From positions 1 to 61,203 of the IMG/VR virus record IMGVR_UViG_3300042564_004703: 61,203 nt of DNA. The stretch is one strand, 5' to 3'. Below are positions 8,904 through 43,200 of this stretch, piece after piece. Within the stretch, counting starts at the first letter, position 1. The number at the start of each line of letters is the position of its first letter. Position numbers and translations under genes: made by a program. Origin of the DNA: a virus (taxonomy: Duplodnaviria > Caudoviricetes). The notes beneath the pieces were generated by a model, which was not told the DNA's origin, did no database searches, and saw only the letters and a list, made by a program, of their open reading frames with translations.

Positions 8904-9170
8904 TTAAAAATCTACGTTTAAATCATCAATTTTAAGTTTATCATTTTCTTTTCCAAAATATAATTCTAATTCTTTTTCAAATGGCTTATTAACCTCATCA
9001 AGTTTATCTGCAATAGCTCTTAAAGTATATGCTGACCAACAACCTGATAAATCAGATTTCTCCCAAAAATAATAAGAACCGTTAGAATCTAATTGAAAAC
9101 TTCCTATTTCTTTACCTGTTATAGTTTGAACAGAATAACTTTTATTTAATTTCTCTATTTTAATTTCCAT
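8904..9170 (-). CDS. Hypothetical protein
   Basis: GSYYFWE..GCWSAYTLRAIADKLDEVN motif seen in phage proteins. Confidence 0.7.
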   Translation of the reverse strand: MEIKIEKLNKSYSVQTITGKEIGSFQLDSNGSYYFWEKSDLSGCWSAYTLRAIADKLDEVNKPFEKELELYFGKENDKLKIDDLNVDF

Positions 9171-9303
9171 AATCTGTAGTAAAAGTTATCTATAAATATT
9201 TGTGGGTCGTTTAACTTTTCGCTCTCTGATTTGTAATATTCCTAAAGCCAATTATTATTCAGTTTTTGAGAGTTTCTCTGTTTTATGTAACCGTCTTTGT
9301 AAT

Positions 9304-9807
9304 TCAAAATCTAAATATTCTAAATGTTATTCCTGCGCCTACTTGTGGTGTTGCTATTACGGTAGGTAGTGGTGTTGTTATTAATGAAAGTCCATATCCC
9401 GCATAAAGACTGAAAGAAAATTTTTTAGCTGCTTTTCGTTTTAACTTTTCATTTTCTTCTGTTAAAATTGCATTATTTGTTTCCTCCTCTTTAATAAGAG
9501 TGTCAGATTTAACTATTACATCTTTTGCTTTTGGAAGTAATGCTTCAGCTTTAAGTCTTAGAAAACGTTCATTATCTAATAACTTTTTATAATATTCTAC
9601 TCCACCAATTGCAATCTTATTAACTTTTTTTAAGTCTTTATTTTCGGCATTAATTTCTTCACATTCATAAATTCTATGTAACACCCACTCTCCTGCTTCA
9701 TAAGAAACTTTTACACTATCTTTTGATATTTCTTGACTTATACAAAGATTCGATGCTATCAGAGATAACAGAAGAATAAACATTTGTTGTGGCTTTAATT
9801 TTTTCAT
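9304..9807 (-). CDS. Exported coiled-coil protein with C-terminal beta-hairpin; putative outer spanin component
   Basis: Signal-peptide-like N-terminus, coiled coil, amphipathic beta strands ending in Phe (FSLYAGYG...VGAGITFRIFRF); overlaps upstream TM/coiled-coil gene. Confidence 0.5.
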   Translation of the reverse strand: MKKLKPQQMFILLLSLIASNLCISQEISKDSVKVSYEAGEWVLHRIYECEEINAENKDLKKVNKIAIGGVEYYKKLLDNERFLRLKAEALLPKAKDVIVKSDTLIKEEETNNAILTEENEKLKRKAAKKFSFSLYAGYGLSLITTPLPTVIATPQVGAGITFRIFRF

Positions 9808-10183
9808 TTGTTTTAATTTTAATTGTTTTATAAATTATTTCTGTTGGTCTTGGAGTGCTTAGTAAGCTGTCGTTTTGAAGTATTAAATAATCATTCACTA
9901 AATTAATACTGTCTCTACTTTTTTCATAGTCGTTTTCGGCATCCTTTAGTTGTTGCTTGGCTATTATAAGCTCTGTTTTTGCATTAGTTAAGTCTCTGTT
10001 TGTTGGCTGTTTAGTTTTTAAGATTAGCATAATACTTAAAATTAGCGAAATAGTAAAAAATAATATTGCACTATTTTTCCAGGTTATGTATTTTTTAATT
10101 TCCATTTGTTTTAATAATTTTTGTAATCCGTTTTTATTTTTAATTTTATCTGAAAATAAAATACTAATTAAATGGCTGTCCAT
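9716..10183 (-). CDS. Putative inner-membrane spanin (likely start 10105, MEIKKY)
   Basis: Single N-terminal TM helix followed by periplasmic coiled coil; overlaps partner gene. Confidence 0.5.
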   Translation of the reverse strand: MDSHLISILFSDKIKNKNGLQKLLKQMEIKKYITWKNSAILFFTISLILSIMLILKTKQPTNRDLTNAKTELIIAKQQLKDAENDYEKSRDSINLVNDYLILQNDSLLSTPRPTEIIYKTIKIKTNEKIKATTNVYSSVISDSIESLYKSRNIKR

Positions 10184-10215
10184 TTTAATTTTTATAAGTT
10201 ACGTTTTAAAGACTT

Positions 10216-10413
10216 TCACGTCTTATTATATTCCTTTTCTATTATTTGTCTGCATGTTTTACTTCGTTCCGTTTGTTTTTTCGGCTTTTCAGCAACTCCA
10301 CAGTATAGTAGTAAAAAGACAGAAAGAGGAAAAATAACACCGAAAAATATTCGGAATAATTTGATACTCCACAACTCTTCGGTATACCCAACTCTCGATT
10401 GATTAATTGTCAT
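10216..10413 (-). CDS. Small membrane protein, cargo of truncated terminal cassette c0
   Basis: 65 aa with a TM segment; starts 64 bp after the GTT core of site A on the minus strand. Confidence 0.55.
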   Translation of the reverse strand: MTINQSRVGYTEELWSIKLFRIFFGVIFPLSVFLLLYCGVAEKPKKQTERSKTCRQIIEKEYNKT

Positions 10414-10470
10414 TGTTTAGTTTATTTCTAAACACTGCCTGTCATTTCAGCACTTACGCCATACAATGAC

Positions 10471-10603
10471 ACACAACGTTTTGTGGCTTTGCGAGGTTTG
10501 GGGAAAGCCTTCCCAATTTTTTGATTTATCAATATTTTTCCAAGTACAAAACAGAGTTTCAGTTTATCACTTCCGCCCAAATCTTGCAAAACCGCTGTTA
10601 GCC
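10471..10603 (-). repeat. attC-like site A
   Basis: Plus strand ACACAAC-GTTTTGTGGCTTTGCGAGGTTTGGG...CCCAAATCTTGCAAAACCGCT-GTTAGCC; ~20-bp imperfect inverted arms. Confidence 0.85.
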
Positions 10604-10677
10604 GTTCGGTTTTATTCTTTTGCTAATTTAGTTTCTTTTTTATATTTTAGCAAATTAATTAAATATTCTTATATACT

Positions 10678-11079
10678 ATGTCTGACCAACCTTTAGTTCC
10701 ATTCAAAGCTTACTTTGAGTTTCAATATAATGATAACTTAAATAAGTTATACCCTGAACATTTAGAAACTTATTTACAAAGGTCTTCCGATGATGCTCAA
10801 ACAGTTAAAACAGCAACTTTTTTAAAAAACTACTTAACAGGTGCAAAACTTCCAATATTTTTAAAAGACAGAAAAGTAGATTTTGATTATCACACTCGTC
10901 ACTCTATTTATCCTGAAAGTTTTTCGGTTACAAATTTAAGTCAGTCTGTTGAATTTAAGGTTAAGTCTGATGAAGTTACTGTTATACAAATAGTAAAAGA
11001 TGATATTACTTTTAGAACCTCAAGTGGTGAGGTAAGGACTGAAACTTTAACAGACCAAATTAAATTATTTAGTCTTTAG
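10678..11079 (+). CDS. Cassette c1 inward gene, hypothetical (133 aa)
   Basis: ORF opposite to phage transcription with its own AT-rich promoter-like leader inside the cassette end. Confidence 0.7.
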   Translation: MSDQPLVPFKAYFEFQYNDNLNKLYPEHLETYLQRSSDDAQTVKTATFLKNYLTGAKLPIFLKDRKVDFDYHTRHSIYPESFSVTNLSQSVEFKVKSDEVTVIQIVKDDITFRTSSGEVRTETLTDQIKLFSL

Positions 11080-11285
11080 ATTTTTCTGCTTTGAGATAAC
11101 TTTTCATCTGCACTTTCTAAAATTTCAAGTAAGTCTTTGTAAGTTGTCTCAAATCTTTTTCCTTCTTTTTCGGTACTGATAAGTATTTCTACTTTATCTT
11201 TTTCGTCTGCAATTGTTCTATTCATATTTTTGTCTGTGAATAGAAAGAACTCTACTTTGTTTTTTGTTAAATAACTTTCTGTCAT
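11076..11285 (-). CDS. Cassette c1 sense gene, hypothetical (69 aa)
   Basis: ATG 44 bp inside the cassette end after an A-rich leader; converges on partner with a 4-bp overlap. Confidence 0.6.
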   Translation of the reverse strand: MTESYLTKNKVEFFLFTDKNMNRTIADEKDKVEILISTEKEGKRFETTYKDLLEILESADEKLSQSRKI

Positions 11286-11322
11286 TTTTTATGTCTTTTT
11301 TAGCACGTTTTGCCAAACTGAC

Positions 11323-11449
11323 GGCTAACGTTTCGCAGCTACACGAGGTGCAAGGCTTCGTGACTGCTGGGTTTATATTTAATTTTATGTTTTTCTTGCG
11401 GTTTTGCAATTCCACTAAATCCTTGCATCTTGTGTAACTGCTGTTGTGC
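11323..11449 (-). repeat. attC-like site B
   Basis: GGCTAAC-GTTTCGCAGCTACACGAGGTGCAAGG...CCTTGCATCTTGTGTAACTGCT-GTTGTGC. Confidence 0.85.
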
Positions 11450-11548
11450 AATCGGCTTTTTGTTCACTTCGTATTTTCGACTATACTTTTTTCACCGCAA
11501 TTTAATAATATTTTACTATTTTCGCATTTCACTTTAAACAATTTTATT

Positions 11549-12031
11549 ATGGATTTTACTCAAGAAATACTTCCTTATATAAATTCTGCTATTTTAGTTT
11601 TTGGAGGTTGGTTTTTAAAACGTATTATTAATGACAAAAATTCCCAAATAGAAACCCTAACTAAAAACAGTAATTCGACTACAGAACTTTTAAATTCTAC
11701 TAAAGTGTTAATAGAAATGTATGATATACAAAAATTTAAAGAACACTTAGATTTTACAATTAATACTTTAGAGGAACGTCATAAAGTTGAAATTGAAAAA
11801 GTTTTTAAACTTTCAGAGCAAAATGTTAAAGATAAGATATTAGAGTTGGCTTCTCCTTGGTTAATTAAGTATCAAGAGCTATTAAACTATCAATTCCATT
11901 TTCTACTTCAAATGTCAGAGGAAGATTTAGAAAAAGTCCTTAAATCGCTTCCTGAAAATAAAGAGTTTATACAATATCAAATTAAAGCTATAAAGGAAAC
12001 TGGTAATCTTAAAGAACTCCCAAAGAACTGA
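11549..12031 (+). CDS. Cassette c2 inward gene: N-terminal TM plus helical domain (160 aa from MDFTQ)
   Basis: In-frame ATG at 11549 (the track start lies in the repeat); TM segment NSAILVFGGWFL. Confidence 0.7.
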   Translation: MDFTQEILPYINSAILVFGGWFLKRIINDKNSQIETLTKNSNSTTELLNSTKVLIEMYDIQKFKEHLDFTINTLEERHKVEIEKVFKLSEQNVKDKILELASPWLIKYQELLNYQFHFLLQMSEEDLEKVLKSLPENKEFIQYQIKAIKETGNLKELPKN

Positions 12032-12221
12032 TTTTGTCAACTCTGTTTCTATAATACATTTTTTTCATTTCAATATAATTTTCCATTGTTGTTACACCAA
12101 GAGCTACAAAATATAAATGCTCTTTGTCAAAAGTATCAAGAAAATATTTTTCACAATCACAATCTAATTTTTTAGATTGTAAAAACTTTATAAGTTTAGT
12201 ACACAACCATTTTTTTAACAT
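12009..12221 (-). CDS. Cassette c2 sense gene, hypothetical (70 aa)
   Basis: A-rich leader inside cassette end; 23-bp convergent overlap. Confidence 0.6.
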   Translation of the reverse strand: MLKKWLCTKLIKFLQSKKLDCDCEKYFLDTFDKEHLYFVALGVTTMENYIEMKKMYYRNRVDKISSLGVL

Positions 12222-12279
12222 TTTTCGCTTAGTTTTTTTCTAAACATTGTGTTTTCAGCGTTAGTTCTGTTAAGCTGTT

Positions 12280-12416
12280 GCACAACGTTTTGTGGCTTCA
12301 AGAAGTGGCGTAACTTCAAGACTGCCGTTAATAAATAATTACTGTTTTTTAGTTTTTACGCCGAAACTTTACTGATAAATCCTAAGCCTAGCCATTTCTT
12401 GAAACCACTGTTAGCA
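12280..12416 (-). repeat. attC-like site C
   Basis: GCACAAC-GTTTTGTGGCTTCAAGAAGTGGC...GCCATTTCTTGAAACCACT-GTTAGCA. Confidence 0.85.
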
Positions 12417-12491
12417 AATCGGCTTTCTTTTTTCTTCCACAATTTAGTTATTTTTTCTTACTTTTGGTAAATCATTTTAAAACTTTAAATT

Positions 12492-12710
12492 ATGAACTAT
12501 CAAGAAGCTTTAGGTTATTTAGATTTAAACCTTTCAAAATTTCAAGAGTTATACCCAAATTCTATTTTTATTATCTCGCCATACTTATATAAAGATTTAG
12601 AAAGATTTATAAAGGATATAAATGAAAAAGGTATAAATAATGTAGATGTTAAAGATTATTCTTCTGATGGTCGTTTTGGTGTTTACGAATGGCGTTATAG
12701 AGCGTTGTAG
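12492..12710 (+). CDS. Cassette c3 inward gene, hypothetical (72 aa)
   Basis: Preceded by consensus -7 box TACTTTTG. Confidence 0.65.
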   Translation: MNYQEALGYLDLNLSKFQELYPNSIFIISPYLYKDLERFIKDINEKGINNVDVKDYSSDGRFGVYEWRYRAL

Positions 12711-12972
12711 GATTAGTTGTATATCTGTTTATATTTAAAGATACTTTTACAATATCTGAATTTTCTATTTTAAAAGTTGGAAGAACTAAATATTTATTTT
12801 TAAATTCTAAAATAGTGTCGGCTATTTTATTCTCTAACTCTTTTTCTAATTCATCGTATTGAGATTCTGTGTAAGTTTCACTATCAGAAGCTAAATAGTT
12901 AATTCCTTCCTCGTTTCCTTTGTCAAAATTTTCTGAATATTCTTTTAAAATGTTTAAATCTTTTTCTGTCAT
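12649..12972 (-). CDS. Cassette c3 sense gene, hypothetical (from MTEKDL)
   Basis: ATG at 12972 with AAAAATG context; 62-bp convergent overlap. Confidence 0.65.
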   Translation of the reverse strand: MTEKDLNILKEYSENFDKGNEEGINYLASDSETYTESQYDELEKELENKIADTILEFKNKYLVLPTFKIENSDIVKVSLNINRYTTNPTTLYNAIRKHQNDHQKNNL

Positions 12973-13053
12973 TTTTGTTACTTGTTTTTTTAGTAACATT
13001 ATCAAACTGCTATTTTCCGTTTTAGTTTTTTGCGGATTTTTGGTTAAGCTGTT

Positions 13054-13188
13054 TGCTAACGTTTTGCTACTAGGCGATGTAGCGGGTTAAATATTCACTG
13101 ACTTTTAAGGTTCGCCTAAACTTTAAAAGTATAAAATTTCCATTCAGTTAAGCCTGTTGCCGCTATATTCGCTTAGTAGCTGTTGTGT
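13054..13188 (-). repeat. attC-like site D
   Basis: TGCTAAC-GTTTTGCTACTAGGCGATGTAGCGG...CCGCTATATTCGCTTAGTAGCT-GTTGTGT. Confidence 0.85.
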
Positions 13189-13249
13189 GTTCGTTGTTTT
13201 TTATTTTATCAAATAAATTTTTTCTATCTTCGGCAAAAATTAATTTATT

Positions 13250-13672
13250 ATGACTTATGAAAAAATTTACGAAGAATTAAAAGATAACATAAAAAAGTTA
13301 CTGATTAATATTGCTTTCTTATTCCCTTTTTGGGCGTTGGCTATTTTTATCACAAAACCCTCTTTTTTAAAAAACCCTATTCATATTCAATTTATTTTGA
13401 CTTTCTGTTTAAGTTTTATGTGGTTATTAATTTATTTCTTAATTGCTGTTTTTATTGCAAGACTTTTCATAAAAAATAATCCATACATTATTCTTGAAAT
13501 TGGTAATCTTTTAGGTATTATGTCGCTTTGTGTATTTATAAATATAGCATATCACTATAATCAATCTTTAACAGATTTATTACAAAACAGTTTTTTATTC
13601 TCTACTTTCTTTTTAGCATTGGTAGCCATTCTAAATTTTGCCAACCATATTCAGAAGTCCAAAAAAGTATAA
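13250..13672 (+). CDS. Cassette c4 inward gene, 4-TM membrane protein
   Basis: Four hydrophobic segments; TATCTTCG -7-like box upstream. Confidence 0.7.
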   Translation: MTYEKIYEELKDNIKKLLINIAFLFPFWALAIFITKPSFLKNPIHIQFILTFCLSFMWLLIYFLIAVFIARLFIKNNPYIILEIGNLLGIMSLCVFINIAYHYNQSLTDLLQNSFLFSTFFLALVAILNFANHIQKSKKV

Positions 13673-13853
13673 AACCTATACACATTATTGGTATCCCAAT
13701 ATATGCTGATTTAATAAATAGTTCCATAGAAAAAAAGTTTAGAGTTTCTCTATCTACTATTTCTATTTTAAAAGGGTTTTCTCTTTTAAAGATTATTACA
13801 CCCATATAAAACATCCATAAAAACAAACACAGTAAAATTAAGTTGATTATCAT
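13602..13853 (-). CDS. Cassette c4 sense gene, 2-TM membrane protein
   Basis: Two hydrophobic segments; 71-bp convergent overlap. Confidence 0.6.
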   Translation of the reverse strand: MIINLILLCLFLWMFYMGVIIFKRENPFKIEIVDRETLNFFSMELFIKSAYIGIPIMCIGFILFWTSEYGWQNLEWLPMLKRK

Positions 13854-13915
13854 TTTTCGTTTAGTTTTTTTCTAAACACTACCTATCATTTTCAGCACTT
13901 ACGCCATACAATAAC

Positions 13916-14044
13916 AGCCAACGTTTTGCAGCTACAAGAAGTTGCGTACTTCATTCACTGCTGATTATTAATTAGTTATTTTTTTGTTTGGGGTGTTTCC
14001 GAATACACAGCAATTCTAGCAATTTATTGTAGGTGGTGTTATGG
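13916..14044 (-). repeat. attC-like site E (somewhat degenerate)
   Basis: AGCCAAC-GTTTTGCAGCTACAAGAAGTTGC...GCAATTTATTGTAGGTGGT-GTTATGG; abuts the groES stop codon. Confidence 0.75.
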
Positions 14045-14275
14045 TTAAATCCACCTCAAAATCTGCTTGTCAATGACATAGCTTTCTCCATTAACAAGGA
14101 AGTCTCCTGTAACTAAAAGACTATCTCCAACTTTAACTTGCCTTTTAGAACCCTGTTTAAAATCTTCACCTATCCCTAAAACTATAACTACTCCTTTGAA
14201 TTCTCCCTTAGAGTCCATAGCAGTCCTTTTTTCTAAGACTCTTTCTACTAATAATCTATCCCCAAATATATTCAT
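14045..14275 (-). CDS. groES: Co-chaperonin GroES-like protein
   Basis: GDRLLVER...GVVIVLGIG...VKVGDSLLV match the cpn10 pattern. Confidence 0.7.
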   Translation of the reverse strand: MNIFGDRLLVERVLEKRTAMDSKGEFKGVVIVLGIGEDFKQGSKRQVKVGDSLLVTGDFLVNGESYVIDKQILRWI

Positions 14276-14412
14276 CTTTTTGACTGTTTAATGAGTTATG
14301 TTGATTAATAAACTCCTCTTTATCTAAGACCCAATCTCCTGTCATATTTTCATAGATTTCAAATAGGTCTTCTGATTTTTTTAGTCTGTTGTAAGCGGTT
14401 TTATATGCTGTT

Positions 14413-14628
14413 TTATTCGATTTCATTTATTTTCTGTTCTATTACTTCTAAATCTTTATCTGTTAATTCAAATATTTTTTTAGGTAGTATTATTTCAAAA
14501 CCTTTACCATTCTTTTTAACTTTTACTGCGTCGACATTTAACCATTGATTCTCATCTTCATTAAAATACTTTGTCTTGCAAAAGCTAATAAAAGAACACC
14601 CCGTATTACTTTTTATCTGATTCAACAT
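14413..14628 (-). CDS. Hypothetical protein
   Basis: 71 aa, operon-packed. Confidence 0.6.
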   Translation of the reverse strand: MLNQIKSNTGCSFISFCKTKYFNEDENQWLNVDAVKVKKNGKGFEIILPKKIFELTDKDLEVIEQKINEIE

Positions 14629-15067
14629 TTACTTGTAGATTTAATTCTTCTTTATCTTGCATTTCTTTTTGAAGAGTTTCAATTAAAACTGTTCTTCCTG
14701 CCTCCGCTTCATTGTGATGTAGTTCCACCATACGTCTTTTAAACTCTAAAAGATTAAGTAAATTTCTAAATTCAATTTGTGCATCTTCAGGATAGTTTGA
14801 AGTAAAACTGAAACACTCTACTAAATTACTTGGAGTAAAAGTTTTATTTGCGTCAAAAATATAAGTTAATTCTTTTTTCTGTTCCTCTGTTGGGTTTTCT
14901 ACAGGCTCTCCATCTTTGTCAATCCATTTATAATGCTTTGGAAGGCAATGTCCTGAAAGCGTGTTTAAATATGTGTCAACTGCATTCTCACTTAATAAGA
15001 AGTCAATACCTTGTATTTCTATTTTTTGTTCAGGTCTAAATGAACTGTTTTCTATTGTTTTTTTCAT
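14606..15067 (-). CDS. Hypothetical protein
   Basis: 153 aa ORF. Confidence 0.75.
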   Translation of the reverse strand: MKKTIENSSFRPEQKIEIQGIDFLLSENAVDTYLNTLSGHCLPKHYKWIDKDGEPVENPTEEQKKELTYIFDANKTFTPSNLVECFSFTSNYPEDAQIEFRNLLNLLEFKRRMVELHHNEAEAGRTVLIETLQKEMQDKEELNLQVNVESDKK

Positions 15068-15081
15068 GTTTTGTTTTTATA

Positions 15082-15118
15082 AACTCCACCCACTCTTATT
15101 GTTGAGTGGGCTTTGTTT
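15082..15118 (-). terminator. Hairpin/terminator downstream of SSB
   Basis: CCCACTC-N9-GAGTGGG stem. Confidence 0.5.
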
Positions 15119-15159
15119 GGAATTTTTAATTAATTATAAGCGTCTGATTATCAACGAGT

Positions 15160-15921
15160 TTAAAAAGGAAGGTCGTCGTTGGCAGGGTTATTTGGGTTAT
15201 AATTTGTCGCAGGCTCGAATGCCTCTTTTGCTGTTGCTGTAGGTACTGCGTTCTTAGGTACCTCCGCTTTTGGTTGTGGCGTAGAAGTCTGTTCTCCTTG
15301 AACCCACTGTAATCTATCAGTTTCTTTTTTAACCAAATCTAATAAATATTCATTTTTAGCTTCTTGTGAAACAGCAGTCGGTTTATTCTTTCCAAGTTTA
15401 TTTACTTTCCACTCTAATGCAGGAATATCTCCATCTACAAACTCCTTTGTTTCATTCCCATCTGTGTCTGTTACTTTTTTAAAATACGCATTAGTTAATT
15501 TTGATTTTAATTTTTCTTCCCCAACAGTTATAGACATACCAATTGAAGCGTACTGCTTATCTTTTGGTATAAAATTATAACCTCTAACTTTTACGTTGTC
15601 TCCTTTATTTAAAAGTGGTAGTAATTTAATTAAGCTCTCTGCATAGGTATCTACATTATCACCTTGGTCTGAAACTGCTACAGGTAAGTAATAAACATTA
15701 TCTCCATCTTTAACATTCATAGAAATTTGAGTACCGAATTTTGACTCATAAAGAGACACTGACTCTAATACACCACTAACTCCTTCTTTGTAATACTTTC
15801 TATAAGATTTATTACCTTTTGTTGAAGTATGCTCTTCATACCCCTCTTTTGGTTCTTTTGAGTAATCAAAGAATAACCCTGAACCGAATTCTAGTTGCAA
15901 AAAATTTTTTTCAATTGCCAT
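15160..15921 (-). CDS. ssb: Single-stranded DNA-binding protein
   Basis: Beta-rich core, Pro-rich linker and acidic C-terminal tip DDLPF. Confidence 0.75.
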   Translation of the reverse strand: MAIEKNFLQLEFGSGLFFDYSKEPKEGYEEHTSTKGNKSYRKYYKEGVSGVLESVSLYESKFGTQISMNVKDGDNVYYLPVAVSDQGDNVDTYAESLIKLLPLLNKGDNVKVRGYNFIPKDKQYASIGMSITVGEEKLKSKLTNAYFKKVTDTDGNETKEFVDGDIPALEWKVNKLGKNKPTAVSQEAKNEYLLDLVKKETDRLQWVQGEQTSTPQPKAEVPKNAVPTATAKEAFEPATNYNPNNPANDDLPF

Positions 15922-16469: not shown

Positions 16470-16531
16470 AGTACAAATGTAGTGATTATTTTTTAATTAT
16501 GCAAATAAAATGTAATCTTTTTATAAATTAT

Positions 16532-16666
16532 TTTTAACGTTTCGTGGCTTTATGAAGTTGCTGATTAGCAATCACTTAACCTTTGATTAATAATTATTTT
16601 TTACAAGTACACACTTGCCTTTTGTTTATTTACCACAGCAGTAATTTTATAAAACCACCGTTGTAT
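16532..16666 (-). repeat. Solo attC-like site F
   Basis: TTTTAAC-GTTTCGTGGCTTTATGAAGTTGCTG...CAGTAATTTTATAAAACCACC-GTTGTAT; same architecture as sites A-E. Confidence 0.75.
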
Positions 16667-16710
16667 TATTTCTTCTGCAAATATACAACATTAATTTATA
16701 TTGTGCAAAT

Positions 16711-24590: not shown

Positions 24591-24739
24591 AAATTTCGAG
24601 AACTTTCATAGTTAAAGTATTGATTTTATTGATGTTTTTTATTAGTTGTACATATATAATAGTTAGCAAACAGCTTTGTTGGAATGGAAAAAAGAAACTA
24701 CCAAGAAAGTTTATTGTTATCGTTATTAAAAAAGTAACA

Positions 24740-24979
24740 ATGGAAGAAGTAATAAAACTAAAATTTAAAAGATGTCCACCGTTTGAAAAGGAAAAGCACT
24801 TAAATTTTACTTCACAACAAGCAAGATTTTTCAAAAAAATTGAAAATTATTGTGAGTCATCAACCGAAAAACAAATAGAAGTGTTAATAGATATTATTAA
24901 ACCTTATTATACAAGACAATCAAAAGAGTCTTTAGGCTTTCCTTTAAAGTATAATTTACTTAATGTCTCTACGAATTAA
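24740..24979 (+). CDS. Cassette cA sense gene (79 aa from MEEVIK)
   Basis: In-frame ATG 78 bp after the GTT core; converges on partner with a 24-bp overlap. Confidence 0.6.
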   Translation: MEEVIKLKFKRCPPFEKEKHLNFTSQQARFFKKIENYCESSTEKQIEVLIDIIKPYYTRQSKESLGFPLKYNLLNVSTN

Positions 24980-25354
24980 TGTGTGTTCGTAGTCGTAAAG
25001 GTCTCGATGTGAATAGTTTCTGATATTACCATTTTCATCTTTACATTTGTATAATACCTCATTTGAAATTTCATTGTCAATAAAAATATCAATTATTTCG
25101 TACCATTGTGGTTTTACTTTACGTTGATTAGAATGAAAATACACTTCTTGACCAACCCTAAACCAAGCTCCTGGAAATACCTCATTTGTTAGAAAAAGAT
25201 TATTTTCCATATCTCTGTAAGTTACTCCATCTTGGTGCGTAAAATCATAAACAGGTATATTATGCGAGGTTTTGTATGTGTTAACTTTAGTTATTGTAAC
25301 TAAACTATTATCTAAACCCCAATAAACTTTTTGAAACAAATTGAATCTTGGCAT
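24956..25354 (-). CDS. Cassette cA inward gene with tandem small beta-barrel-like repeats
   Basis: Two similar halves (FNLFQKVY.. and FRVGQEVY..); own -7 box TAAGTTTG. Confidence 0.7.
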   Translation of the reverse strand: MPRFNLFQKVYWGLDNSLVTITKVNTYKTSHNIPVYDFTHQDGVTYRDMENNLFLTNEVFPGAWFRVGQEVYFHSNQRKVKPQWYEIIDIFIDNEISNEVLYKCKDENGNIRNYSHRDLYDYEHTLIRRDIK

Positions 25355-25421
25355 GTGTAAATTTTTAAAATTTTTACCAAACTTACGAAAATATTTATAA
25401 CTTTGAAAATAAAAGCCGATT

Positions 25422-25554
25422 TGCTAACAGCGGTTTTGTGCAAGTGGCAGGTTAGTGAGTGTTTGAAAGCACTCGGCACGAATAAAAAACAGTAATAATC
25501 GGCAAAGTTCAGGCTCAATCGTGCCACCTGACACAAAGCCACAAAACGTTATAT
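25422..25554 (+). repeat. attC-like site H
   Basis: TGCTAAC-AGCGGTTTTGTGCAAGTGGCA...TGCCACCTGACACAAAGCCACAAAAC-GTTATAT. Confidence 0.85.
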
Positions 25555-25626
25555 GAAATGCCTTGCTTACCGTTTCCAATTGAAGTTCCGTTAATGAAAA
25601 ACAAAAAGAAAAAAGCCACCGCACTT

Positions 25627-26304
25627 TTAAAATAAGGTGTTTTCAATATATTTATCTTTAACCTTATAACTTGCATCATATCTTTGGTTATCTCCTTTTG
25701 GGTATGGTTCAATCTTAAATTTCAATTTCTTTAGCATATCATTTTTTTGTCGTTTATCTCCTATAAAATAAAAATATCTATGCTTCCTATCTCTTTCAGC
25801 AAAATACAAATCATCTCCAAATTTTTCTTTTAGCCATTTACCTCTGTCTTTTTGCCCTCTACTCATATCAAAAATTGTAGATGTATGCAAGTGTTCCATC
25901 CCTCTTACTTTATAATCACTAACTTTAGCTGACAATCCCGTATAAATCCAATTTGTAGCTTGATAAATATAACCGTTATGTCCTTTTGATGTATCGGCAT
26001 AACTAACAATCACATTGGGTTTTGGGATATGATTTAAACATTTTGATAAGAACCAACTTAATATATTTTTCTCTAATCCTTCATCAACACAAAGCCTATT
26101 TAATTCAATAACATTATAATCAGAATATACACTTCTAATTGCGTTACTTGCAGGAGTTCCAAAGCTACATATACCTTTGATTTCATTATCTAAAATCAAA
26201 CCAAATAAAAATGTAATTGGTGGCATACGTTTAGCATAGTGCTTGTTTAAAATCCACTCCTTACCTTTTTCTTTAGGTATTATTTCTACTTTATAATTTA
26301 GCAT
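25627..26304 (-). CDS. Mom-like GNAT DNA-modification enzyme (cassette cB cargo)
   Basis: KHY...SFG...ELNRLC...VSYAD...GH.GYIYQATNWIYTG...KHRY match the Mu Mom family. Confidence 0.8.
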   Translation of the reverse strand: MLNYKVEIIPKEKGKEWILNKHYAKRMPPITFLFGLILDNEIKGICSFGTPASNAIRSVYSDYNVIELNRLCVDEGLEKNILSWFLSKCLNHIPKPNVIVSYADTSKGHNGYIYQATNWIYTGLSAKVSDYKVRGMEHLHTSTIFDMSRGQKDRGKWLKEKFGDDLYFAERDRKHRYFYFIGDKRQKNDMLKKLKFKIEPYPKGDNQRYDASYKVKDKYIENTLF

Positions 26305-26480
26305 ATCTCTTGTATTCTTTCAGGAAATATTCTTATTATTTCTCCTTTTGAGTTATGCAATTCAACAAACAAAGTATCATTTTCATAATAATCATTTGTA
26401 TAAATCATTACTTCTTCTATCTGTGATATTGTGGTTTCATCTAAACCATCTGTATCAATTACTTTTACATTTTTTGCCAT
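26298..26480 (-). CDS. Small hypothetical protein (cassette cB cargo)
   Basis: 60 aa, overlaps the Mom-like start. Confidence 0.6.
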   Translation of the reverse strand: MAKNVKVIDTDGLDETTISQIEEVMIYTNDYYENDTLFVELHNSKGEIIRIFPERIQEIC

Positions 26481-26549
26481 CGCTTTTTTTCTTTTTGTTT
26501 TTCTGTTTAGTGTTTCAATTGGGGTTTATCGTAAATAAGTCGGCACTTC

Positions 26550-26632
26550 ATATAACACGGGTTTGGCAAAATGGCTTTCCGACACACAAGCCAACGCTAA
26601 AAGCCACTTCGCCAAGCCCGATAACGTTAGTG
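26550..26632 (+). repeat. attC-like site I (short)
   Basis: ATATAAC-ACGGGTTTGGCAAAATGGCTTT...AAAGCCACTTCGCCAAGCCCGATAAC-GTTAGTG. Confidence 0.85.
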
Positions 26633-26638
26633 GCAATT

Positions 26639-26938
26639 TTACTCAACACTCCGAAAGACATCAGCATTGAAATATTTAGCCAAGTTTTCAACCTCTTGCT
26701 TAAATTCGTTTTCATCACGCATTGTCTTTGATAACATTACTTCAAACACTCCATCTACTTTTCTTCCAAAGCAATAAGCAAGAGCATCTTTGTCATAGGT
26801 ATCAACTCCCATTACATATTCAGGCTGTTTGATAGTAGCTTTCTCCAACAATGCTTTGTCGAATAAAAAACTGCCACTAACAGCACCTAAACAAGATGGC
26901 TGGCTTTGTGATTCTAATGAAGTTTTTTCTGTACTCAT
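26639..26938 (-). CDS. Hypothetical protein whose N-terminus is read through an attC remnant (cassette cC)
   Basis: SQPSCLGAVSGS is the antisense translation of CTGCCACTAACAGCACCTAAACAAGATGGCTGGCT. Confidence 0.65.
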   Translation of the reverse strand: MSTEKTSLESQSQPSCLGAVSGSFLFDKALLEKATIKQPEYVMGVDTYDKDALAYCFGRKVDGVFEVMLSKTMRDENEFKQEVENLAKYFNADVFRSVE

Positions 26939-29770: not shown

Positions 29771-30188
29771 TTTTATAGATGATATTTTTGAAGAAATAGG
29801 GGCTGACAAAGAACAGCAAATGGCAATAAAGTTTTGGTTAGATTATGTCGCAAAAGAAACAAAAGAAAATGAAGTATTTGCCATAGACATTCCAAAGATA
29901 GGAGTTTTACATAGAAACAGAACTTTAACTCAAAACTCTAAAAAGTATCTAAACAGAGACAGCGAAGAGTACGCAGAGATAATGAAGATGCTTTTAGAGA
30001 TGCAATATTTCAAAGAACAGAAAAATGAAAAAACCCCACATTGTAAAACACCATACACATACATAACAAGTAGTTATTTAAAGAAAAAATATGAATTACC
30101 ACAAATAAATAATTCAGATAAACAAGTAAAAGAAGTATATTCAGCAATAGAAAAAGAACAACAAAAACAGTATGAGCGAGGCTTTTAA
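29757..30188 (+). CDS. Hypothetical protein, possible HU/IHF-like fold
   Basis: IDIPKIGVL resembles the HU beta strand motif. Confidence 0.45.
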   Translation: MKQISFIDDIFEEIGADKEQQMAIKFWLDYVAKETKENEVFAIDIPKIGVLHRNRTLTQNSKKYLNRDSEEYAEIMKMLLEMQYFKEQKNEKTPHCKTPYTYITSSYLKKKYELPQINNSDKQVKEVYSAIEKEQQKQYERGF

Positions 30189-31761
30189 ACACCAAGTATT
30201 AAGTAGAGAAGAAACACAAGAAAAAATTAAACAAGGAATTGATTTAGTAGTAAATCCTGTAAAGGTAACTTTAGGAAGAGGAGGAATGAATGTATTGTTA
30301 ATTCGAGATAACTTACTTCCTGTAATTACAAAGGACGGAGTTTCAGTAGCTAGAAACATACAACATGAAGACCCATTTGTGAACGCAGGAGCTATGTTAG
30401 TTAAGGAAGTATCTGCAAGAACAGAAGAATTATGTGGAGACGGTAGTTCAACTTCTAGTGTATTAGCTCAAGCAATATTTAATGAGGTTCAAAAGCACAA
30501 AAATATAAATCCAATTCAACTAAAAAAAGATTTAGAAAAAGTAACAGAAGAAGTTGTTGGACACCTAAAAAAATTAAGTCAAAAACCTAAGTCAAAAGTA
30601 AGACTTAAAGAAATTGCAGATATTTCCGCTAATGGAGATAAAGAAGTAGCTGATTTAGTTTATAAAGCTATTCAAAAAGTAGGAGAGACAGGAGTAATTA
30701 AAGTTGAAGAATCAGAAGATGTAGATTCAAGAGTAGAAGTTGTAGATGGTTATCAATTAGACACTCCATTCTATAATGCAGGTTTTATCACAAATCACGA
30801 TAAAATGACAGCAGAATTCTCCAATATGAATGTACTTTTATATGAAGGATTTTTAGAAACCTTTGACGATTTAGTCCCAACAATAAACGCAATAACAGAT
30901 TTTACAGACCCTGAAAACCCAAGAGTAGGTGGTTTATTAATTTTGTGCGACACAATCGACCCAAACACAGAAAACCAAATACTAAACTTTAAATCATTAG
31001 GACATAACTTTATGATTTTAAAAACTCCTTTATTTGGAATTCAAAGAACAGAGCTTTACCAGGATATTGCAACTTTAATCGGAGCACAAGTCTACTGCAA
31101 AGAAAAAGGAAAACCACTTACAGAAGTTAAATTAGAAGGATTAGGAAAAGTTAAGAAAGTTGTTTCTGACGTAAATAAGACACTATTAATAGGCACAGAA
31201 GGAAATACATCAGAAAGAATAAATACCATCAAAGAACAGCTTAAAAACTACCAAGGCGCGTCAAAAGAAAAACAAACAATAAAAGACAGACTTGGAAAAT
31301 TAGAAGGTGGTGTTGCAATGATTTATGTTGGTGGTGGCTCAAAATCCGACAAAAGAGAAAAAACAGATAGAGTAGATGACGCACTAAAAGCAGTTAAGTC
31401 TTGTATTGAAGAAGGATATGTAGCAGGAGCAGGAGTAACTTATTTAACTATTTCTAATATGTTGCAAGGAACTAATGAAGCCACACAAGTAATGAAAGAG
31501 GTATTAAAAGCACCTTTCTTACAAGTATATGAAAACGCAGGGATAAACGGAGAAGATTATTTAGATTATGTTTTAACTTCAGAATACGGCTCAGGAATTG
31601 ATATTGATAATGGAGAAAAAGTCAATCTTTTTGACATTGGAGTAATTGACCCAACAAAAGTAAGCAGATTAGCTTTAGAAAACGCAGTATCTGTTGTAAG
31701 TTTATTTACTTCTTTAGGAGCTTCAAGTTTTAATTCAGAACCTTTAATGCAAATGAGCTAA
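30172..31761 (+). CDS. groEL: Chaperonin GroEL
   Basis: VTLG..G.NV, ITKDGVSVA, GDGSST, ISANGD, GGVA, EEGYVAGAG, IDPTKV. Confidence 0.95.
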   Translation: MSEAFKHQVLSREETQEKIKQGIDLVVNPVKVTLGRGGMNVLLIRDNLLPVITKDGVSVARNIQHEDPFVNAGAMLVKEVSARTEELCGDGSSTSSVLAQAIFNEVQKHKNINPIQLKKDLEKVTEEVVGHLKKLSQKPKSKVRLKEIADISANGDKEVADLVYKAIQKVGETGVIKVEESEDVDSRVEVVDGYQLDTPFYNAGFITNHDKMTAEFSNMNVLLYEGFLETFDDLVPTINAITDFTDPENPRVGGLLILCDTIDPNTENQILNFKSLGHNFMILKTPLFGIQRTELYQDIATLIGAQVYCKEKGKPLTEVKLEGLGKVKKVVSDVNKTLLIGTEGNTSERINTIKEQLKNYQGASKEKQTIKDRLGKLEGGVAMIYVGGGSKSDKREKTDRVDDALKAVKSCIEEGYVAGAGVTYLTISNMLQGTNEATQVMKEVLKAPFLQVYENAGINGEDYLDYVLTSEYGSGIDIDNGEKVNLFDIGVIDPTKVSRLALENAVSVVSLFTSLGASSFNSEPLMQMS

Positions 31762-41681: not shown

Positions 41682-41723
41682 TTATAAGAAATTTGCACAG
41701 TTAAAATATTTGTTGTATATTTG
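41682..41723 (+). promoter_or_regulatory. Late promoter in front of the homing endonuclease
   Basis: TTATAAGAA...TTTG...TATATTTG, 34-bp spacing. Confidence 0.65.
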
Positions 41724-41727
41724 CCAC

Positions 41728-43200
41728 ATGAGAAGTGATACATTAACAACAGAACAATTTATCAAAAAAGCAAAAGAAGTTCACGGAGACCTATATGACT
41801 ATTCAAAAGTAGATTACAAAGGTTCTAGGACTAAAGTAGAGATAGTTTGTAATACGCATGGAGTCTTTGAGCAAAGACCTGACACACATCTTGGAGGAGC
41901 ACATTGTTATAAATGTAGCAAAGAAAAAATGGGTAAAGGTAATAGGTTGAAAAAGGAGGAAGTTATTAATAAAGCTACTGAAATACATAAAGGATTGTAT
42001 GACTACTCTTTAATTGAAGAGTATACAGGATGTAGAAATAAATACCCTATTATTTGTAAAAAACACGGAGTATTTAATATGAGATTTGATACTCATTTAA
42101 TGCAAAGAGGGTGTCCTAAATGTGGTTTTGAAATAAAAGCTAAGAATACCTTAATCCCACAAGAAGATGTATTAAAGAGGTATAAAATAGTACACAATGA
42201 AAAGTACAATTACCCTAACTTTGAGTATAAAGGTAGTGAATTTAAAGTAAAAGTAGAGTGTCCCACACATGGAGTATTTGAACAATATTCTAAACAACAC
42301 ATGAAAGGTAATGGTTGCCCAAAATGTGTAACTACTGAATCAAAAGCAGAAATAGAGATTAGAGATTTTATCAGTAAAAATGTAGAGATAATATACTCAG
42401 ACAGAACAATACTTAGAAGTAAAAGGGAAATAGATATTTTTATACCCTCTAAAAAATTAGCAATAGAATATAACGGACTATATTGGCATTCGGAAAATTT
42501 TATTGAAAACACATATCACTTAGACAAAACAGAAGATTGTTTGAAACAAGATATAAAATTAATTCATATTTTTGAAGATGAGTGGATTTATAAAAAAGAG
42601 GTAGTTAAATCAAGACTTTTAAATTTAATAGGTTTTTCAGAAAATAAGATTTATGCAAGAAATTGTGAAATAAAAGAAGTTAATTCAAGAGAGGCTTTAA
42701 AATTTTTAGATGAAAATCACATACAAGGAAAAGTAGGAGCAAAGATAAGAATAGGACTGTATTATAACAATGAACTTGTATCTATAATGACTTTTGGAGA
42801 ACTTAGAAAAAGTCTAGGAAATAGTAAAAAAGAAGGAAGCTTTGAGTTATTAAGATTTTGTAATAAGTTAAATACAAATGTAGTAGGGGGAGCATCAAAA
42901 TTGTTGAAGCATTTTGAAAATAACTTTGAATATGAAGAAATAATTTCTTACGCAGACAGAAGATGGAGTAACGGAGATTTATATGAAAAATTAGATTTTA
43001 CTTTCATTTCTAAAACAAGACCTAATTATTTTTATGTTAGACTAGATAAAAGAGAACCTCGATTTAAATACCGAAAAGACATCTTAGTAAAAGAGGGCTA
43101 TGATAAAACCAAGACAGAAAAAGAAATAATGAAAGAAAGAGGATACAATAGAATATATGATTGTGGCTCTTTAAAATTTGTAAAAACCAAGAAAAAATAA
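41728..43200 (+). CDS. Hef-like homing endonuclease: 3 Zn-finger repeats, Vsr/PD-(D/E)XK-like nuclease, GNAT-like C-terminus
   Basis: Three C..HG.F...H....C..C repeats; EIDIFI..LAIEYNGLYWH; ELLRFC...GASKLL...SYAD; ATG at 41728 lies after the -7 box. Confidence 0.8.
   Translation: MRSDTLTTEQFIKKAKEVHGDLYDYSKVDYKGSRTKVEIVCNTHGVFEQRPDTHLGGAHCYKCSKEKMGKGNRLKKEEVINKATEIHKGLYDYSLIEEYTGCRNKYPIICKKHGVFNMRFDTHLMQRGCPKCGFEIKAKNTLIPQEDVLKRYKIVHNEKYNYPNFEYKGSEFKVKVECPTHGVFEQYSKQHMKGNGCPKCVTTESKAEIEIRDFISKNVEIIYSDRTILRSKREIDIFIPSKKLAIEYNGLYWHSENFIENTYHLDKTEDCLKQDIKLIHIFEDEWIYKKEVVKSRLLNLIGFSENKIYARNCEIKEVNSREALKFLDENHIQGKVGAKIRIGLYYNNELVSIMTFGELRKSLGNSKKEGSFELLRFCNKLNTNVVGGASKLLKHFENNFEYEEIISYADRRWSNGDLYEKLDFTFISKTRPNYFYVRLDKREPRFKYRKDILVKEGYDKTKTEKEIMKERGYNRIYDCGSLKFVKTKKK

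What the first reader, a model, noticed from the sequence alone, without database searches (positions are those of the whole stretch)
10216..14044. Integron-like gene-cassette array inside a lytic crAss-like phage, with no integrase in the window
Seen: five 127-137 bp hairpins (A 10471, B 11323, C 12280, D 13054, E 13916), each AAC-GTTT..arm..loop..arm-GTT, separate unrelated gene blocks of about 650-850 bp. The arms differ in sequence but keep their pairing, with G-T wobbles on one strand. The cores are shifted by one register: A-right GTTAGCCGT pairs with B-left ACGGCTAAC, B-right GTTGTGCAA with C-left TTGCACAAC, C-right GTTAGCAAA with D-left TTTGCTAAC. Established: integron cassettes show this pattern because recombination at the GTT core splits each cassette's own attC. 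Inference: the phage captures and shuffles Bacteroidota-type cassettes using a recombinase supplied in trans, giving it a plug-in accessory gene system.
Basis: partly seen in the sequence, partly recalled or inferred. Interest (0 to 1): 0.92.

Follow-up and report, generated by a model that had tools for sequence, protein, structure and literature searches.

The report
Integron-type gene cassettes in a phage
A large lake-water phage of Bacteroidota carries a row of small gene units separated by folded recombination sites like those of bacterial integrons, a set-up already reported in a few phages, but here the sites belong to a widespread family tied to a simpler recombinase.

Summary
Five ~135-nt imperfect hairpins lie at 10469-14046 with RYYYAAC/GTTRRRY cores. 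The right core of A, B and C is the exact reverse complement of the left core of the next site.

A covariance model built from them finds three more sites in the window. It also finds 177 sites in 65 IMG/VR loci and 115 sites in 60 bacterial loci, nearly all Bacteroidota. The register rule holds in 104 of 159 neighbouring pairs there, against 1.7% for shuffled partners. The stems covary.

In bacteria the arrays sit beside a XerA-like tyrosine recombinase that fails the IntI cut-off. Some phages carry a shorter homologue; this 44%-complete window has none.

One window cassette recurs in a Flavobacterium array.

Attachment-site clusters without an integrase are already published for virulent phages (Qi et al. 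2023), so the headline is not new.

These points look new:
- the site family itself;
- the non-IntI recombinase;
- gene orientation opposite in phage and bacterial arrays;
- gene bodies and hairpins reassorting at both cores.

"crAss-like" is only distantly true: the nearest isolates are Cellulophaga phages phi17:2 and phi4:1.

The parts
10469..10605 (+). Site A: attC-like hairpin. Its left core pairs with D-right; its right core pairs with B-left.
   Evidence: (99.5 bits)
11321..11451 (+). Site B: attC-like hairpin.
   Evidence: (116.7 bits)
12278..12418 (+). Site C: attC-like hairpin.
   Evidence: (130.1 bits)
13052..13190 (+). Site D: attC-like hairpin.
   Evidence: (97.5 bits)
13914..14046 (+). 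Site E: terminal attC-like hairpin. Its 4-bp foot stem is partly broken. Its right core overlaps the stop codon of the - strand phage gene 14045..14275.
   Evidence: (117.8 bits)
10606..11320 (.). Cassette body c1: + ORF 10678..11079 (133 aa) and convergent - ORF 11076..11285 (69 aa). Neither matches a family.
11452..12277 (.). Cassette body c2: + ORF 11549..12031 (160 aa) and convergent - ORF 12009..12221 (70 aa). Both have homologues, in the same arrangement, between two sites of a Flavobacterium sp. contig (L186).
   Evidence: (46.8% over 156 aa; 45.5% over 66 aa)
12419..13051 (.). Cassette body c3: + ORF 12492..12710 (72 aa) and - ORF 12649..12972 (107 aa). Its first ~90 nt and last ~15 nt recur around a different gene next to site G.
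13191..13913 (.). Cassette body c4: + ORF 13250..13672 (140 aa, hydrophobic) and - ORF 13602..13853 (83 aa).
10002..10468 (.). Possible first body c0. It starts at a hairpin-less core (10002-10010), the exact partner of E-left, and holds - ORF 10216..10413 (65 aa). The boundary is uncertain because the core lies inside - ORF 9716..10183.
16530..16668 (+). Site F: lone attC-like hairpin between two - strand phage genes. No partner cores were found.
   Evidence: (51.9 bits)
26548..26634 (-). Site H: short-loop attC-like hairpin. Its right core pairs 9 of 9 with G-left.
   Evidence: (45.5 bits)
25420..25556 (-). Site G: attC-like hairpin. Its right core and the next 8 nt are identical to those of site C.
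   Evidence: (46.5 bits)
25627..26304 (-). Cargo of the H-G cassette: Mom-like DNA-modification protein (225 aa).
   Evidence: phrog_1384, 2.9e-56; 41.8% to a cassette ORF in viral locus L079; 28.9% to the place of Polaribacter phage P12002L that annotates as its Mom-like gene
26873..26881 (-). Hairpin-less core, exact partner of H-left. It marks the upstream edge of the H-G block.
24662..24670 (-). Hairpin-less core, exact partner of G-right. It marks the downstream edge of the H-G block; phage sequence follows directly.

Best explanation
**What it is.** Positions about 10,002/10,216 to 14,046 hold an array of four, perhaps five, integron-type gene cassettes in the early-gene arm of a ~140-kb phage of freshwater Bacteroidota. 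A second small block lies at 24,662-26,881 and a lone site at 16,530.

**How the units are built.** Each gene body is bracketed by a short inverted repeat (GTT+6 ... 6+AAC). Neighbouring bodies are separated by a ~135-nt hairpin whose structure, not its sequence, is conserved.

**How it most likely works (inferred).**
- On single-stranded DNA the hairpin folds.
- In an excised unit the two cores of one body pair to complete the stem.
- A tyrosine recombinase cuts at the GTT/AAC core, so units can be cut out as circles and put in elsewhere.
- The enzyme is most likely the XerA-like recombinase found beside such arrays in Bacteroidota and in some of their phages. Either the host supplies it or it lies in the unseen 56% of this genome.
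- Homologous exchange within the conserved hairpin feet adds a second route of shuffling.

**Cargo.** The bodies hold small accessory genes with promoter-like upstream regions, and at least one is a counter-defence gene (Mom-like).

**Shown:** site anatomy, covariation, the register rule, breakpoints at the cores, sharing of a cassette with a host genome, and linkage of the site family to the recombinase.

**Inferred:** the folded single-strand mechanism, which strand reacts, which enzyme acts in this phage, and that the system is active now.
For: **Cores and register rule**
- The cores are canonical, and the register shift is exact at 3 of the 4 A-E junctions and at H-G.
- Family-wide, 6 of 6 variable positions pair in 67 of 109 viral, 37 of 50 bacterial and 4 of 6 window neighbour pairs. 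Shuffled partners give 1.7%.
- Within one site only 2 of 134 reach 6 of 6.

**Structure**
- Covariation: 97.7% of cells paired against 67.0% shuffled; 15 of 19 pairs have compensatory changes.

**Distribution**
- The model finds sites in 65 of 116 IMG/VR pattern loci and in 58 of 120 genome pattern loci.
- By the titles, 53 of the 58 genome loci are labelled Bacteroidota.

**Recombinase linkage**
- A homologous recombinase lies next to the sites, in the same relative arrangement, in 8 bacterial stretches (L206 and L288 show one place twice); a ninth, L160, has only a 57-aa end.
- The same holds for 4 viral records (L053, L099, L124, and L079 with L159). In a fifth viral record (G014) the recombinase lies about 2 kb from the array.
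- The viral and bacterial enzymes are 45% identical.

**Mobility**
- Two pairs of viral arrays share a body at 90.4% and 85.4% identity. Homology starts at the GTT core and stops at the AAC core.
- In a third pair, a hairpin that is 92% identical is followed by divergence right after GTTA.
- Cassette c2 recurs in a Flavobacterium array.
- Lake-metagenome contigs carrying window bodies run on into other sequence at the cores. Two contigs diverge after 13063, and one leaves the window after 12286.

**Accessory status**
- No sites in the two nearest isolates or in the loci of 42 distant relatives.

**Precedent**
- Phage attachment sites recombined by IntI1 in an assay (Qi et al. 2023, section 3.4).
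Against: - No recombinase was found in the window, and no excised circle or clean deletion joint was seen. All joints have sides of 18-30 nt, which the tool itself flags as unreliable.
- The array-linked recombinase is not a canonical integron integrase. It scores 203.4 bits on TIGR02249 against a cut-off of 265, with model positions 178-237 unmatched. Its best solved relatives are XerA-type.
- The same body occurs with different hairpins on both sides. Crossing over at a single core does not predict this.
- The H-G block has three bodies but two hairpins, and F is a hairpin with no body.
- Gene orientation relative to the site's asymmetry is opposite in viral and bacterial arrays: 90 of 94 against 4 of 49. 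Phage cassettes are therefore mostly not simple copies of host cassettes.
- A-left pairs with D-right, not with anything to its left.
- Rfam has no matching family, and the published attC model could not be run.
- The experimentally tested sites of Polaribacter phage P12002L match my model only weakly (20.3 bits, E 0.025).
Confidence: 0.75

Rival explanations
1. **Regulatory cassettes of the PeSL kind.** The hairpins would be terminators or insulators with an adjacent promoter, placed between small phage genes. Shuffling would come only from homologous recombination between these repeats, with no site-specific recombinase.
For: - In viral arrays the hairpin strand with the G.T pairs is the coding strand in 90 of 94 bodies, so the hairpin would sit at the 3' end of transcripts.
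- A conserved T-rich stretch and promoter-like sequence follow each right core.
- The hairpin feet are conserved enough for homologous exchange, and bodies and hairpins do reassort independently.
- PeSLs in T4-type phages do exactly this and even give mini-circles (Arbiol et al. 2010, PMC2839356; abstract read).
Against: - It does not explain why each body carries its own 6-nt core sequence and that sequence's complement at the other end.
- It does not explain the canonical GTTRRRY/RYYYAAC cores.
- It does not explain why the same sites stand in bacterial arrays, in the opposite orientation to the genes, beside a dedicated recombinase.
- The T-run starts about 10-15 nt from the stem, unlike an intrinsic terminator.
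Confidence: 0.12
2. **Miniature transposable elements.** The hairpins would be MITE-like elements mobilised by a host transposase that have spread through the intergenic regions of Bacteroidota and their phages. The gene bodies would be ordinary resident genes.
For: - A lone hairpin (F) sits between two phage genes without any body.
- Hairpins move independently of bodies.
- Depth at hairpin B is several-fold above its flanks in three of the four lake metagenomes laid (table 2).
- A preprint reports MITEs shared by viruses and Flavobacteriales hosts (10.1101/2024.01.18.576219; passages read).
Against: - There are no direct target duplications; the flanks are inverted complements shared with the next site.
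- Bodies, not only hairpins, move between arrays with breakpoints at the cores.
- No transposase family was found in the window.
- The sites are linked to a tyrosine recombinase in 12 stretches or records.
Confidence: 0.05
3. **Assembly artefact.** The metagenomic contig would have been mis-joined across repeated hairpins, so the array is not really inside this phage.
For: Short-read contigs of four lake runs break at the hairpins, and none spans the whole stretch.
Against: - 16 of 24 listed runs hold at least half of the sampled words of 9600-14600, and ten hold 92-99%. Three of the ten may be the source sample.
- Both flanks are - strand phage genes of one arm.
- Single contigs cross sites D (12413-13949) and A (10466-11185) (table 8).
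- Further sites lie elsewhere in the same phage.
Confidence: 0.03

Closest known systems
Integron gene-cassette arrays; clusters of attC sites lacking an integrase (CALINs), including those reported in virulent phages (Qi et al. 2023, Front Microbiol, PMC9892861)
   Same: - Imperfect hairpin sites with RYYYAAC ... GTTRRRY cores.
- Structure is conserved, sequence is not.
- Site length is within the attC range as I recall it.
- A cassette's left core pairs with the right core of the preceding site.
- Arrays of unrelated small genes.
- Occurrence in phage genomes without an integrase.
- DNA-modification cargo.
   Different: - The site family has its own conserved stem sequence, a 5-nt against 1-nt asymmetry at the foot, and fixed G.T and C.A positions.
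- The linked recombinase lacks the stretch that marks integron integrases.
- Phage cassettes mostly carry the gene in the reverse sense to bacterial ones.
- Hairpins and bodies reassort at both cores.
- IntegronFinder 2.0 reported only one complete integron in Bacteroidetes, in Salinibacter ruber (PMC9024848; passage read).
PeSL regulatory cassettes of T4-type phages (Arbiol et al. 2010, PMC2839356; Comeau et al. 2014, PMC4122927, search listing only)
   Same: - Repeated stem-loops with an adjacent promoter between small non-essential genes in variable regions of large lytic phages.
- Exchange between the repeats shuffles genes.
   Different: - PeSL exchange is by homology between the repeats.
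- Here each unit has its own complementary core pair, the stems covary, and a recombinase gene is linked.
Xer/XerA-type 'simple' tyrosine recombinases, and mobile elements that use them on folded single-stranded DNA (for example CTX phage; recalled, not checked here)
   Same: The array-linked enzymes are closest to XerA-type proteins in sequence.
   Different: They sit at the ends of cassette arrays rather than acting at a chromosomal dif site. The genomes also hold other Xer-like genes.
Cellulophaga phages phi17:2 and phi4:1 (genus Lightbulbvirus, ~145 kb)
   Same: They are the nearest cultured relatives of the carrier phage: the portal is 38.9% identical over 99% of its length. Their size matches the CheckV estimate for this phage.
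   Different: They have no site of this family (0 of 2 records).

Membership tests
Integron attC sites / gene-cassette array | Outer cores RYYYAAC (left) and GTTRRRY (right) on an imperfect inverted repeat | tested here: met
   All 8 window sites have AAC ... GTT with purine/pyrimidine-patterned neighbours. The same holds for the cores listed for 88 neighbouring viral pairs.
Integron attC sites / gene-cassette array | The left core of a site pairs with the right core of the preceding site, because recombination splits each site | tested here: met
   Window: A-B, B-C, C-D and H-G pair 9 of 9. Family: 104 of 159 neighbour pairs pair 6 of 6, against 1.7% with shuffled partners.
Integron attC sites / gene-cassette array | Secondary structure is conserved while sequence varies | tested here: met
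   97.7% of cells paired; 15 of 19 pairs have changes on both sides; 0 of 500 shuffles reach the covariation score. The alignment was fitted to the model, but an ungapped census gave the same picture.
Integron attC sites / gene-cassette array | Unpaired features (extrahelical bases, central spacer) that set strand choice | tested here: inconclusive
   A fixed asymmetry exists: GTTTY against T, C.A in 159 of 269 sites, and G.T in 207 of 269. Its equivalence to the canonical extrahelical bases, and which strand is the reactive one, could not be settled. Total folding energy does not differ between the strands (120 of 277 favour the model strand).
Integron attC sites / gene-cassette array | Detection by the published attC covariance model (IntegronFinder/HattCI) | not testable with these tools
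   The model is not in Rfam and the region gives no Rfam match at E <= 1. The sites of phage P12002L, which published tools predicted, match my model only weakly.
Integron attC sites / gene-cassette array | Recombined by an integron integrase | not testable with these tools
   This needs a recombination assay.
CALIN (two or more attC sites, no integrase nearby; definition recalled) | A cluster of sites without a tyrosine recombinase close by | tested here: met
   Five sites lie within 3.6 kb, and PF00589 is absent from the whole 61-kb window.
Integron integrase (IntI) | Reaches the family model's cut-off, including the IntI-specific insertion | tested here: not met
   Bacterial array-linked enzyme: TIGR02249 203.4 bits against 265, matched in two pieces that skip model positions 178-237; NF011946 125 against 435. 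Phage enzyme: TIGR02249 150.5 against 265. That the skipped stretch is the IntI-specific domain is my inference.
XerA-type simple tyrosine recombinase | Reaches NF040815 and is closest to solved XerA-type structures | tested here: inconclusive
   The bacterial enzyme scores 222.3 bits against a cut-off of 220, and the phage enzyme 192.3, below it. The best PDB matches are 4a8e and 5hxy.
PeSL-type regulatory cassette | Functional promoter plus terminator stem-loop | not tested
   Only sequence hints were seen: a T-rich run and promoter-like motifs after the right cores. The promoter scan on offer is for sigma-70 sites and was not run.
MITE | Terminal inverted repeats flanked by a direct target-site duplication | tested here: not met
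   The flanks of each hairpin are not direct repeats. They are complements of the neighbouring sites' flanks.
Crassvirales (crAss-like phages) | Close similarity of hallmark proteins to recognised crAss-like phages | tested here: inconclusive
   The portal is about 21-22% identical over 63% of its length to phages cr10_1, cr6_1 and cr114_1, and 38.9% identical to Lightbulbvirus. Only the portal was tested.

The most novel reading that the evidence does not exclude
Bacteroidota and their phages share a previously unrecognised integron-like system.
- Its recombination sites are a distinct ~135-nt hairpin family.
- Its enzyme is a simple XerA-like tyrosine recombinase that lacks the integron-integrase insertion.
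- Phages keep their own cassette pool. Some phages even carry the recombinase at the end of the array. In that pool the genes face the opposite way from those of bacterial arrays.
- Gene bodies and hairpins are separate modules that reassort at both cores.

The window would then be one example of a common plug-in accessory-gene system of phages, not a stray piece of a bacterial integron.
Probability: 0.45. Interest if true: 0.85.

Novelty: new variant of a known kind. Interest (0 to 1): 0.68.

Why it matters
**For phage biology.** If these arrays are active, many Bacteroidota phages have a cut-and-paste store of small accessory genes, such as the Mom-like modification gene seen here. They could exchange these genes with each other and, at least sometimes, with their hosts. 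That would be a mechanistic route for the rapid turnover of orphan genes and counter-defence genes in phages.

**For integron biology.** It would add a whole phylum that current integron surveys largely report as empty. It would also show that folded-hairpin cassette recombination does not need the insertion that defines integron integrases.

**As an observation.** The opposite gene orientation in phage and host arrays is a clean, testable observation that has no explanation yet.

**For experiments.** The sites and both recombinases are short and could be tested in standard two-plasmid or conjugation assays in laboratory strains.

Tried and rejected
**Searches that found nothing**
- DNA similarity of 9000-15500 to 50,697 phage records: no match.
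- Pfam and PHROGs on the nine array ORFs and the flanking 76-aa gene: no match reaches significance (best E 0.0046 to phrog_37185 and E 0.0083 to Enkurin, below Pfam's cut-off). My by-eye guess that 14045..14275 is GroES-like is therefore unsupported.
- NCBIfam on the flanking genes: nothing.
- Rfam: nothing.
- Relatives found with the 253-aa neighbour protein were only 29-33% identical and carried no sites, so the cassette content at the same locus in close relatives could not be compared.

**Tests that did not settle the question**
- Deciding which hairpin travels with a body by comparing homologous bodies: neither neighbour is co-inherited.
- Deciding the reactive strand by folding energy: no difference. 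RNA parameters were used because no DNA parameter file was found.
- Read laying: only assembled contigs were available. No circle junction was seen. All joints have 18-30-nt sides and are not used as evidence, and uncovered parts mean nothing.
- The 9-mer at 10002 as the left edge of the array: it is an exact partner of E-left and unique in the window, but it lies inside an ORF. I leave it open. An exchange between the ~60-nt homologous left flanks of A and E would explain the swapped partners; this is conjecture.

**Limits of the work**
- Supplementary tables of Qi et al. 2023, which list the 17 phage clusters, and of the MITE preprint could not be opened. They may already include relatives of these elements.
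- Literature searches for prior description of this family found none, but they cover open-access text only.

Full report
**What is in the window.** The window is a 61,203-bp IMG/VR virus record, linear and 44% complete by CheckV. It is a tailed phage. It encodes a large terminase, a portal, a virion protein and a GroEL-like chaperonin. Genes up to about 28.4 kb run on the - strand and those from about 30.2 kb on the + strand. The portal is 38.9% identical over 99% of its length to Cellulophaga phages phi17:2 and phi4:1 (145 kb, genus Lightbulbvirus). It is only about 21-22% identical over 63% to recognised crAss-like phages. The stretch 9600-14600 occurs in lake and freshwater metagenomes. 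'crAss-like' is therefore a distant relationship at best, and 'lytic' cannot be judged from a partial genome.

**The observation.**
- They share this order: six variable bases, AAC, GTTTY, a 4-bp stem, a C facing A or G, a 13-16-bp stem, a 60-80-nt AT-rich loop, the return arms, T, GTT, six variable bases.
- The right cores of A, B and C are exact 9-nt reverse complements of the left cores of B, C and D. D-right matches A-left 9 of 9 and E-left 7 of 9.
- Folding energy of single sites is not far from shuffled sequence. The z-scores are -0.8 to -3.75 on the + strand and +0.6 to -3.5 on the - strand. The case therefore rests on comparison, not on energy.

**A family, not five sites.**
- A covariance model of the five sites finds three more in the window: F 16530-16668 (+), G 25420-25556 (-) and H 26548-26634 (-). 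H-right pairs 9 of 9 with G-left.
- A degenerate pattern taken from the sites hit 116 stretches of IMG/VR and 120 stretches of the one-genome-per-species collection.
- The model confirms 177 sites in 65 viral loci and 115 sites in 60 bacterial loci, two of which I fetched around recombinase genes.
- Of the 58 confirmed bacterial pattern loci, 53 bear Bacteroidota names such as Flavobacterium, Chryseobacterium, Kaistella, Chitinophaga and Algoriphagus. The other five are an Ignavibacteriaceae MAG, an unlabelled MAG, and MAGs labelled Saccharibacteria, Brocadiaceae and Bifidobacterium (titles).
- On 94 members, 97.7% of stem cells pair, against 67.0% in shuffles and at most 46.2% with slid partners. 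Fifteen of 19 pairs show compensatory changes.
- An ungapped census of 269 sites gives the same picture. It also shows three fixed non-Watson-Crick positions: C.A in 159 sites, G.T in 103 and G.T in 207.
- The cores read GTTRRRY and RYYYAAC.
- The register rule holds 6 of 6 in 67 of 109 viral, 37 of 50 bacterial and 4 of 6 window neighbour pairs, against 1.7% for shuffled partners. Many failures have long gaps that probably hide a missed site.

**Why I read them as recombination sites.** The only explanation I know for a variable core that is complementary to the core on the far side of the gene is the integron one. In the excised unit the two cores pair to complete the folded site. Three further lines agree.
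- *Recombinase in genomes.* In 5 of 5 bacterial genomes examined, the best match to the integron-integrase model is a 322-359-aa tyrosine recombinase.
- *Recombinase beside the sites.* A homologue lies next to the sites in 8 bacterial stretches (L206 and L288 show one place twice); a ninth, L160, has only a 57-aa end. The arrangement is always the same: the recombinase gene, then sites in the model's minus orientation, with the cassette genes reading in the same direction as the recombinase gene.
- *Breakpoints.* Two pairs of viral arrays share a body at 90.4% and 85.4% identity, and homology starts at the GTT core and ends at the AAC core. In a third pair, a hairpin that is 92% identical is followed by divergence immediately after GTTA.
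- *Exchange with the host.* Window cassette c2 has homologues of both of its convergent genes (46.8% and 45.5% identity). They lie in the same arrangement between two sites of a Flavobacterium sp. contig whose other bodies are of the bacterial type.

Contigs from other lake metagenomes carry window bodies but leave the window sequence at the cores. Two contigs diverge after 13063, and one leaves after 12286.

**Not a textbook integron.**
- The linked enzyme scores 203.4 bits on TIGR02249, where the cut-off is 265. It matches in two pieces that skip model positions 178-237. It just reaches the XerA-type model (222.3 against 220). Its best solved relatives are XerA-type proteins, ahead of VchIntIA.
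- Five viral records carry a 266-277-aa homologue: in four it lies next to the sites, at the downstream end of the array; in G014 it lies about 2 kb from the array. The G027 enzyme is 45% identical to the bacterial one.
- Of 15 array-bearing viral records at least 90% complete, 5 have a tyrosine recombinase and 10 do not.
- One of the 10 without it is a 33.5-kb genome with terminal repeats, a terminase and replication genes, so it is a real phage.
- The longest ORF of a body lies on the model's plus strand in 90 of 94 viral bodies but on its minus strand in 45 of 49 bacterial bodies. By source, 37 of 41 viral are all plus and 20 of 25 bacterial are all minus.
- The same body can have different hairpins on both sides.
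- The H-G block has three bodies, two hairpins and hairpin-less cores at both ends: 26873-26881 and 24662-24670, each an exact partner. F is a hairpin with no body.

I take this to mean that homologous exchange in the conserved hairpin feet, or recombination of either strand, acts beside the site-specific reaction. I cannot say which strand reacts.

**The window's array in detail.**
- Each of bodies c1-c4 holds a + ORF (133, 160, 72 and 140 aa) and a convergent, slightly overlapping - ORF (69, 70, 107 and 83 aa). Both ORFs of c2 are conserved elsewhere, so at least that pair is real.
- The right core of E overlaps the stop codon of phage gene 14045..14275.
- The left edge is unclear. No partner of A-left lies to its left. 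A unique exact partner of E-left lies at 10002, inside ORF 9716..10183.
- The ~60 nt to the left of A and of E are homologous.
- The H-G cassette encodes a Mom-like DNA-modification protein (phrog_1384, E 2.9e-56). A homologue sits in a cassette of another viral record.
- The two nearest isolates and the loci of 42 distant relatives have no such sites. The cassettes are therefore an acquisition of this lineage.

**What is known.**
- Qi et al. 2023 (PMC9892861; abstract and section 3.4 read) reported integrons and 17 integrase-less attC clusters in phages, virulent ones included. One is a Polaribacter phage. They showed that five of six tested phage sites are recombined by IntI1. The Polaribacter phage's sites match my model only weakly.
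- IntegronFinder 2.0 found one complete integron in Bacteroidetes (PMC9024848; passage read).
- A preprint lists MITEs shared by viruses and Flavobacteriales.
- PeSL cassettes of T4-type phages are the closest phage analogue (PMC2839356; abstract read).
- Integration at non-classical genomic sites (attG) is mentioned in the abstract of PMC12901181 (search listing). It would fit the hairpin-less edges seen here. I did not read the primary paper.
- My searches found no description of this site family, its XerA-like enzyme or the orientation contrast.

**Verdict.** The integron-type reading is well supported for the sites and units. It is unproven for current activity and for the source of the enzyme. 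The finding is a new variant of a known kind.

Noticed in passing
L289 7537-8418 (-) and 8427-9482 (-), Flavobacterium sp. genome stretch G010:C47: Two genes lie between the last cassette site and the array-linked recombinase. One is a class A subclass A2 beta-lactamase (NF012099, 331 bits against a cut-off of 320). The other is a serine-hydrolase or class-C-like protein with only weak matches. Both were only named by a family scan.
   Followed up: no
window 41710-43200 (+): A 496-aa protein among the structural genes. It matches HNH/homing-endonuclease PHROGs over its full length and, in residues 313-463, the Mom-like family. It is a second Mom-related gene in this phage.
   Followed up: no
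window 30172-31761 (+): A phage-encoded GroEL-like chaperonin (phrog_5725, 4.6e-118). The small gene 14045..14275 beside site E looked GroES-like by eye but matched no family.
   Followed up: partly
window 10606-10625, 11452-11470, 12419-12440, 13191-13212 and minus-strand 25419-25400: A conserved motif (TCGG, then C or T, then a T-run) directly follows the right cores of A, B, C, D and G. Bodies c3 and the one after G share about 90 nt of promoter-like leader and the last ~15 nt, but hold different genes.
   Followed up: partly
hairpin loops, e.g. window 13115-13130 and 12360-12375; loci L067, L140: The large loops are not random. Short A/T-rich motifs, such as an AAACTTTA-type word, recur in the loops of unrelated sites. 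This hints at a second binding site or a promoter in the loop.
   Followed up: no
window 10380-10468, 12190-12277, 13825-13913: The regions upstream of the small - strand ORFs next to sites A, C and E share a conserved ~30-nt stretch, and A and E share ~60 nt. This could be a common promoter or leader and a substrate for homologous exchange.
   Followed up: partly
window 9716-10183 (-) and 9304-9807 (-): Two - strand ORFs overlap by 92 nt in different frames just left of the array. The first contains the orphan core at 10002, so it may be a fusion across an insertion edge.
   Followed up: no
loci L168, L201, L203 (MAGs labelled Saccharibacteria, Brocadiaceae, Bifidobacterium): Good sites of this family occur on short contigs binned into non-Bacteroidota MAGs. 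Mis-binning of phage or Bacteroidota contigs seems more likely than true occurrence.
   Followed up: no
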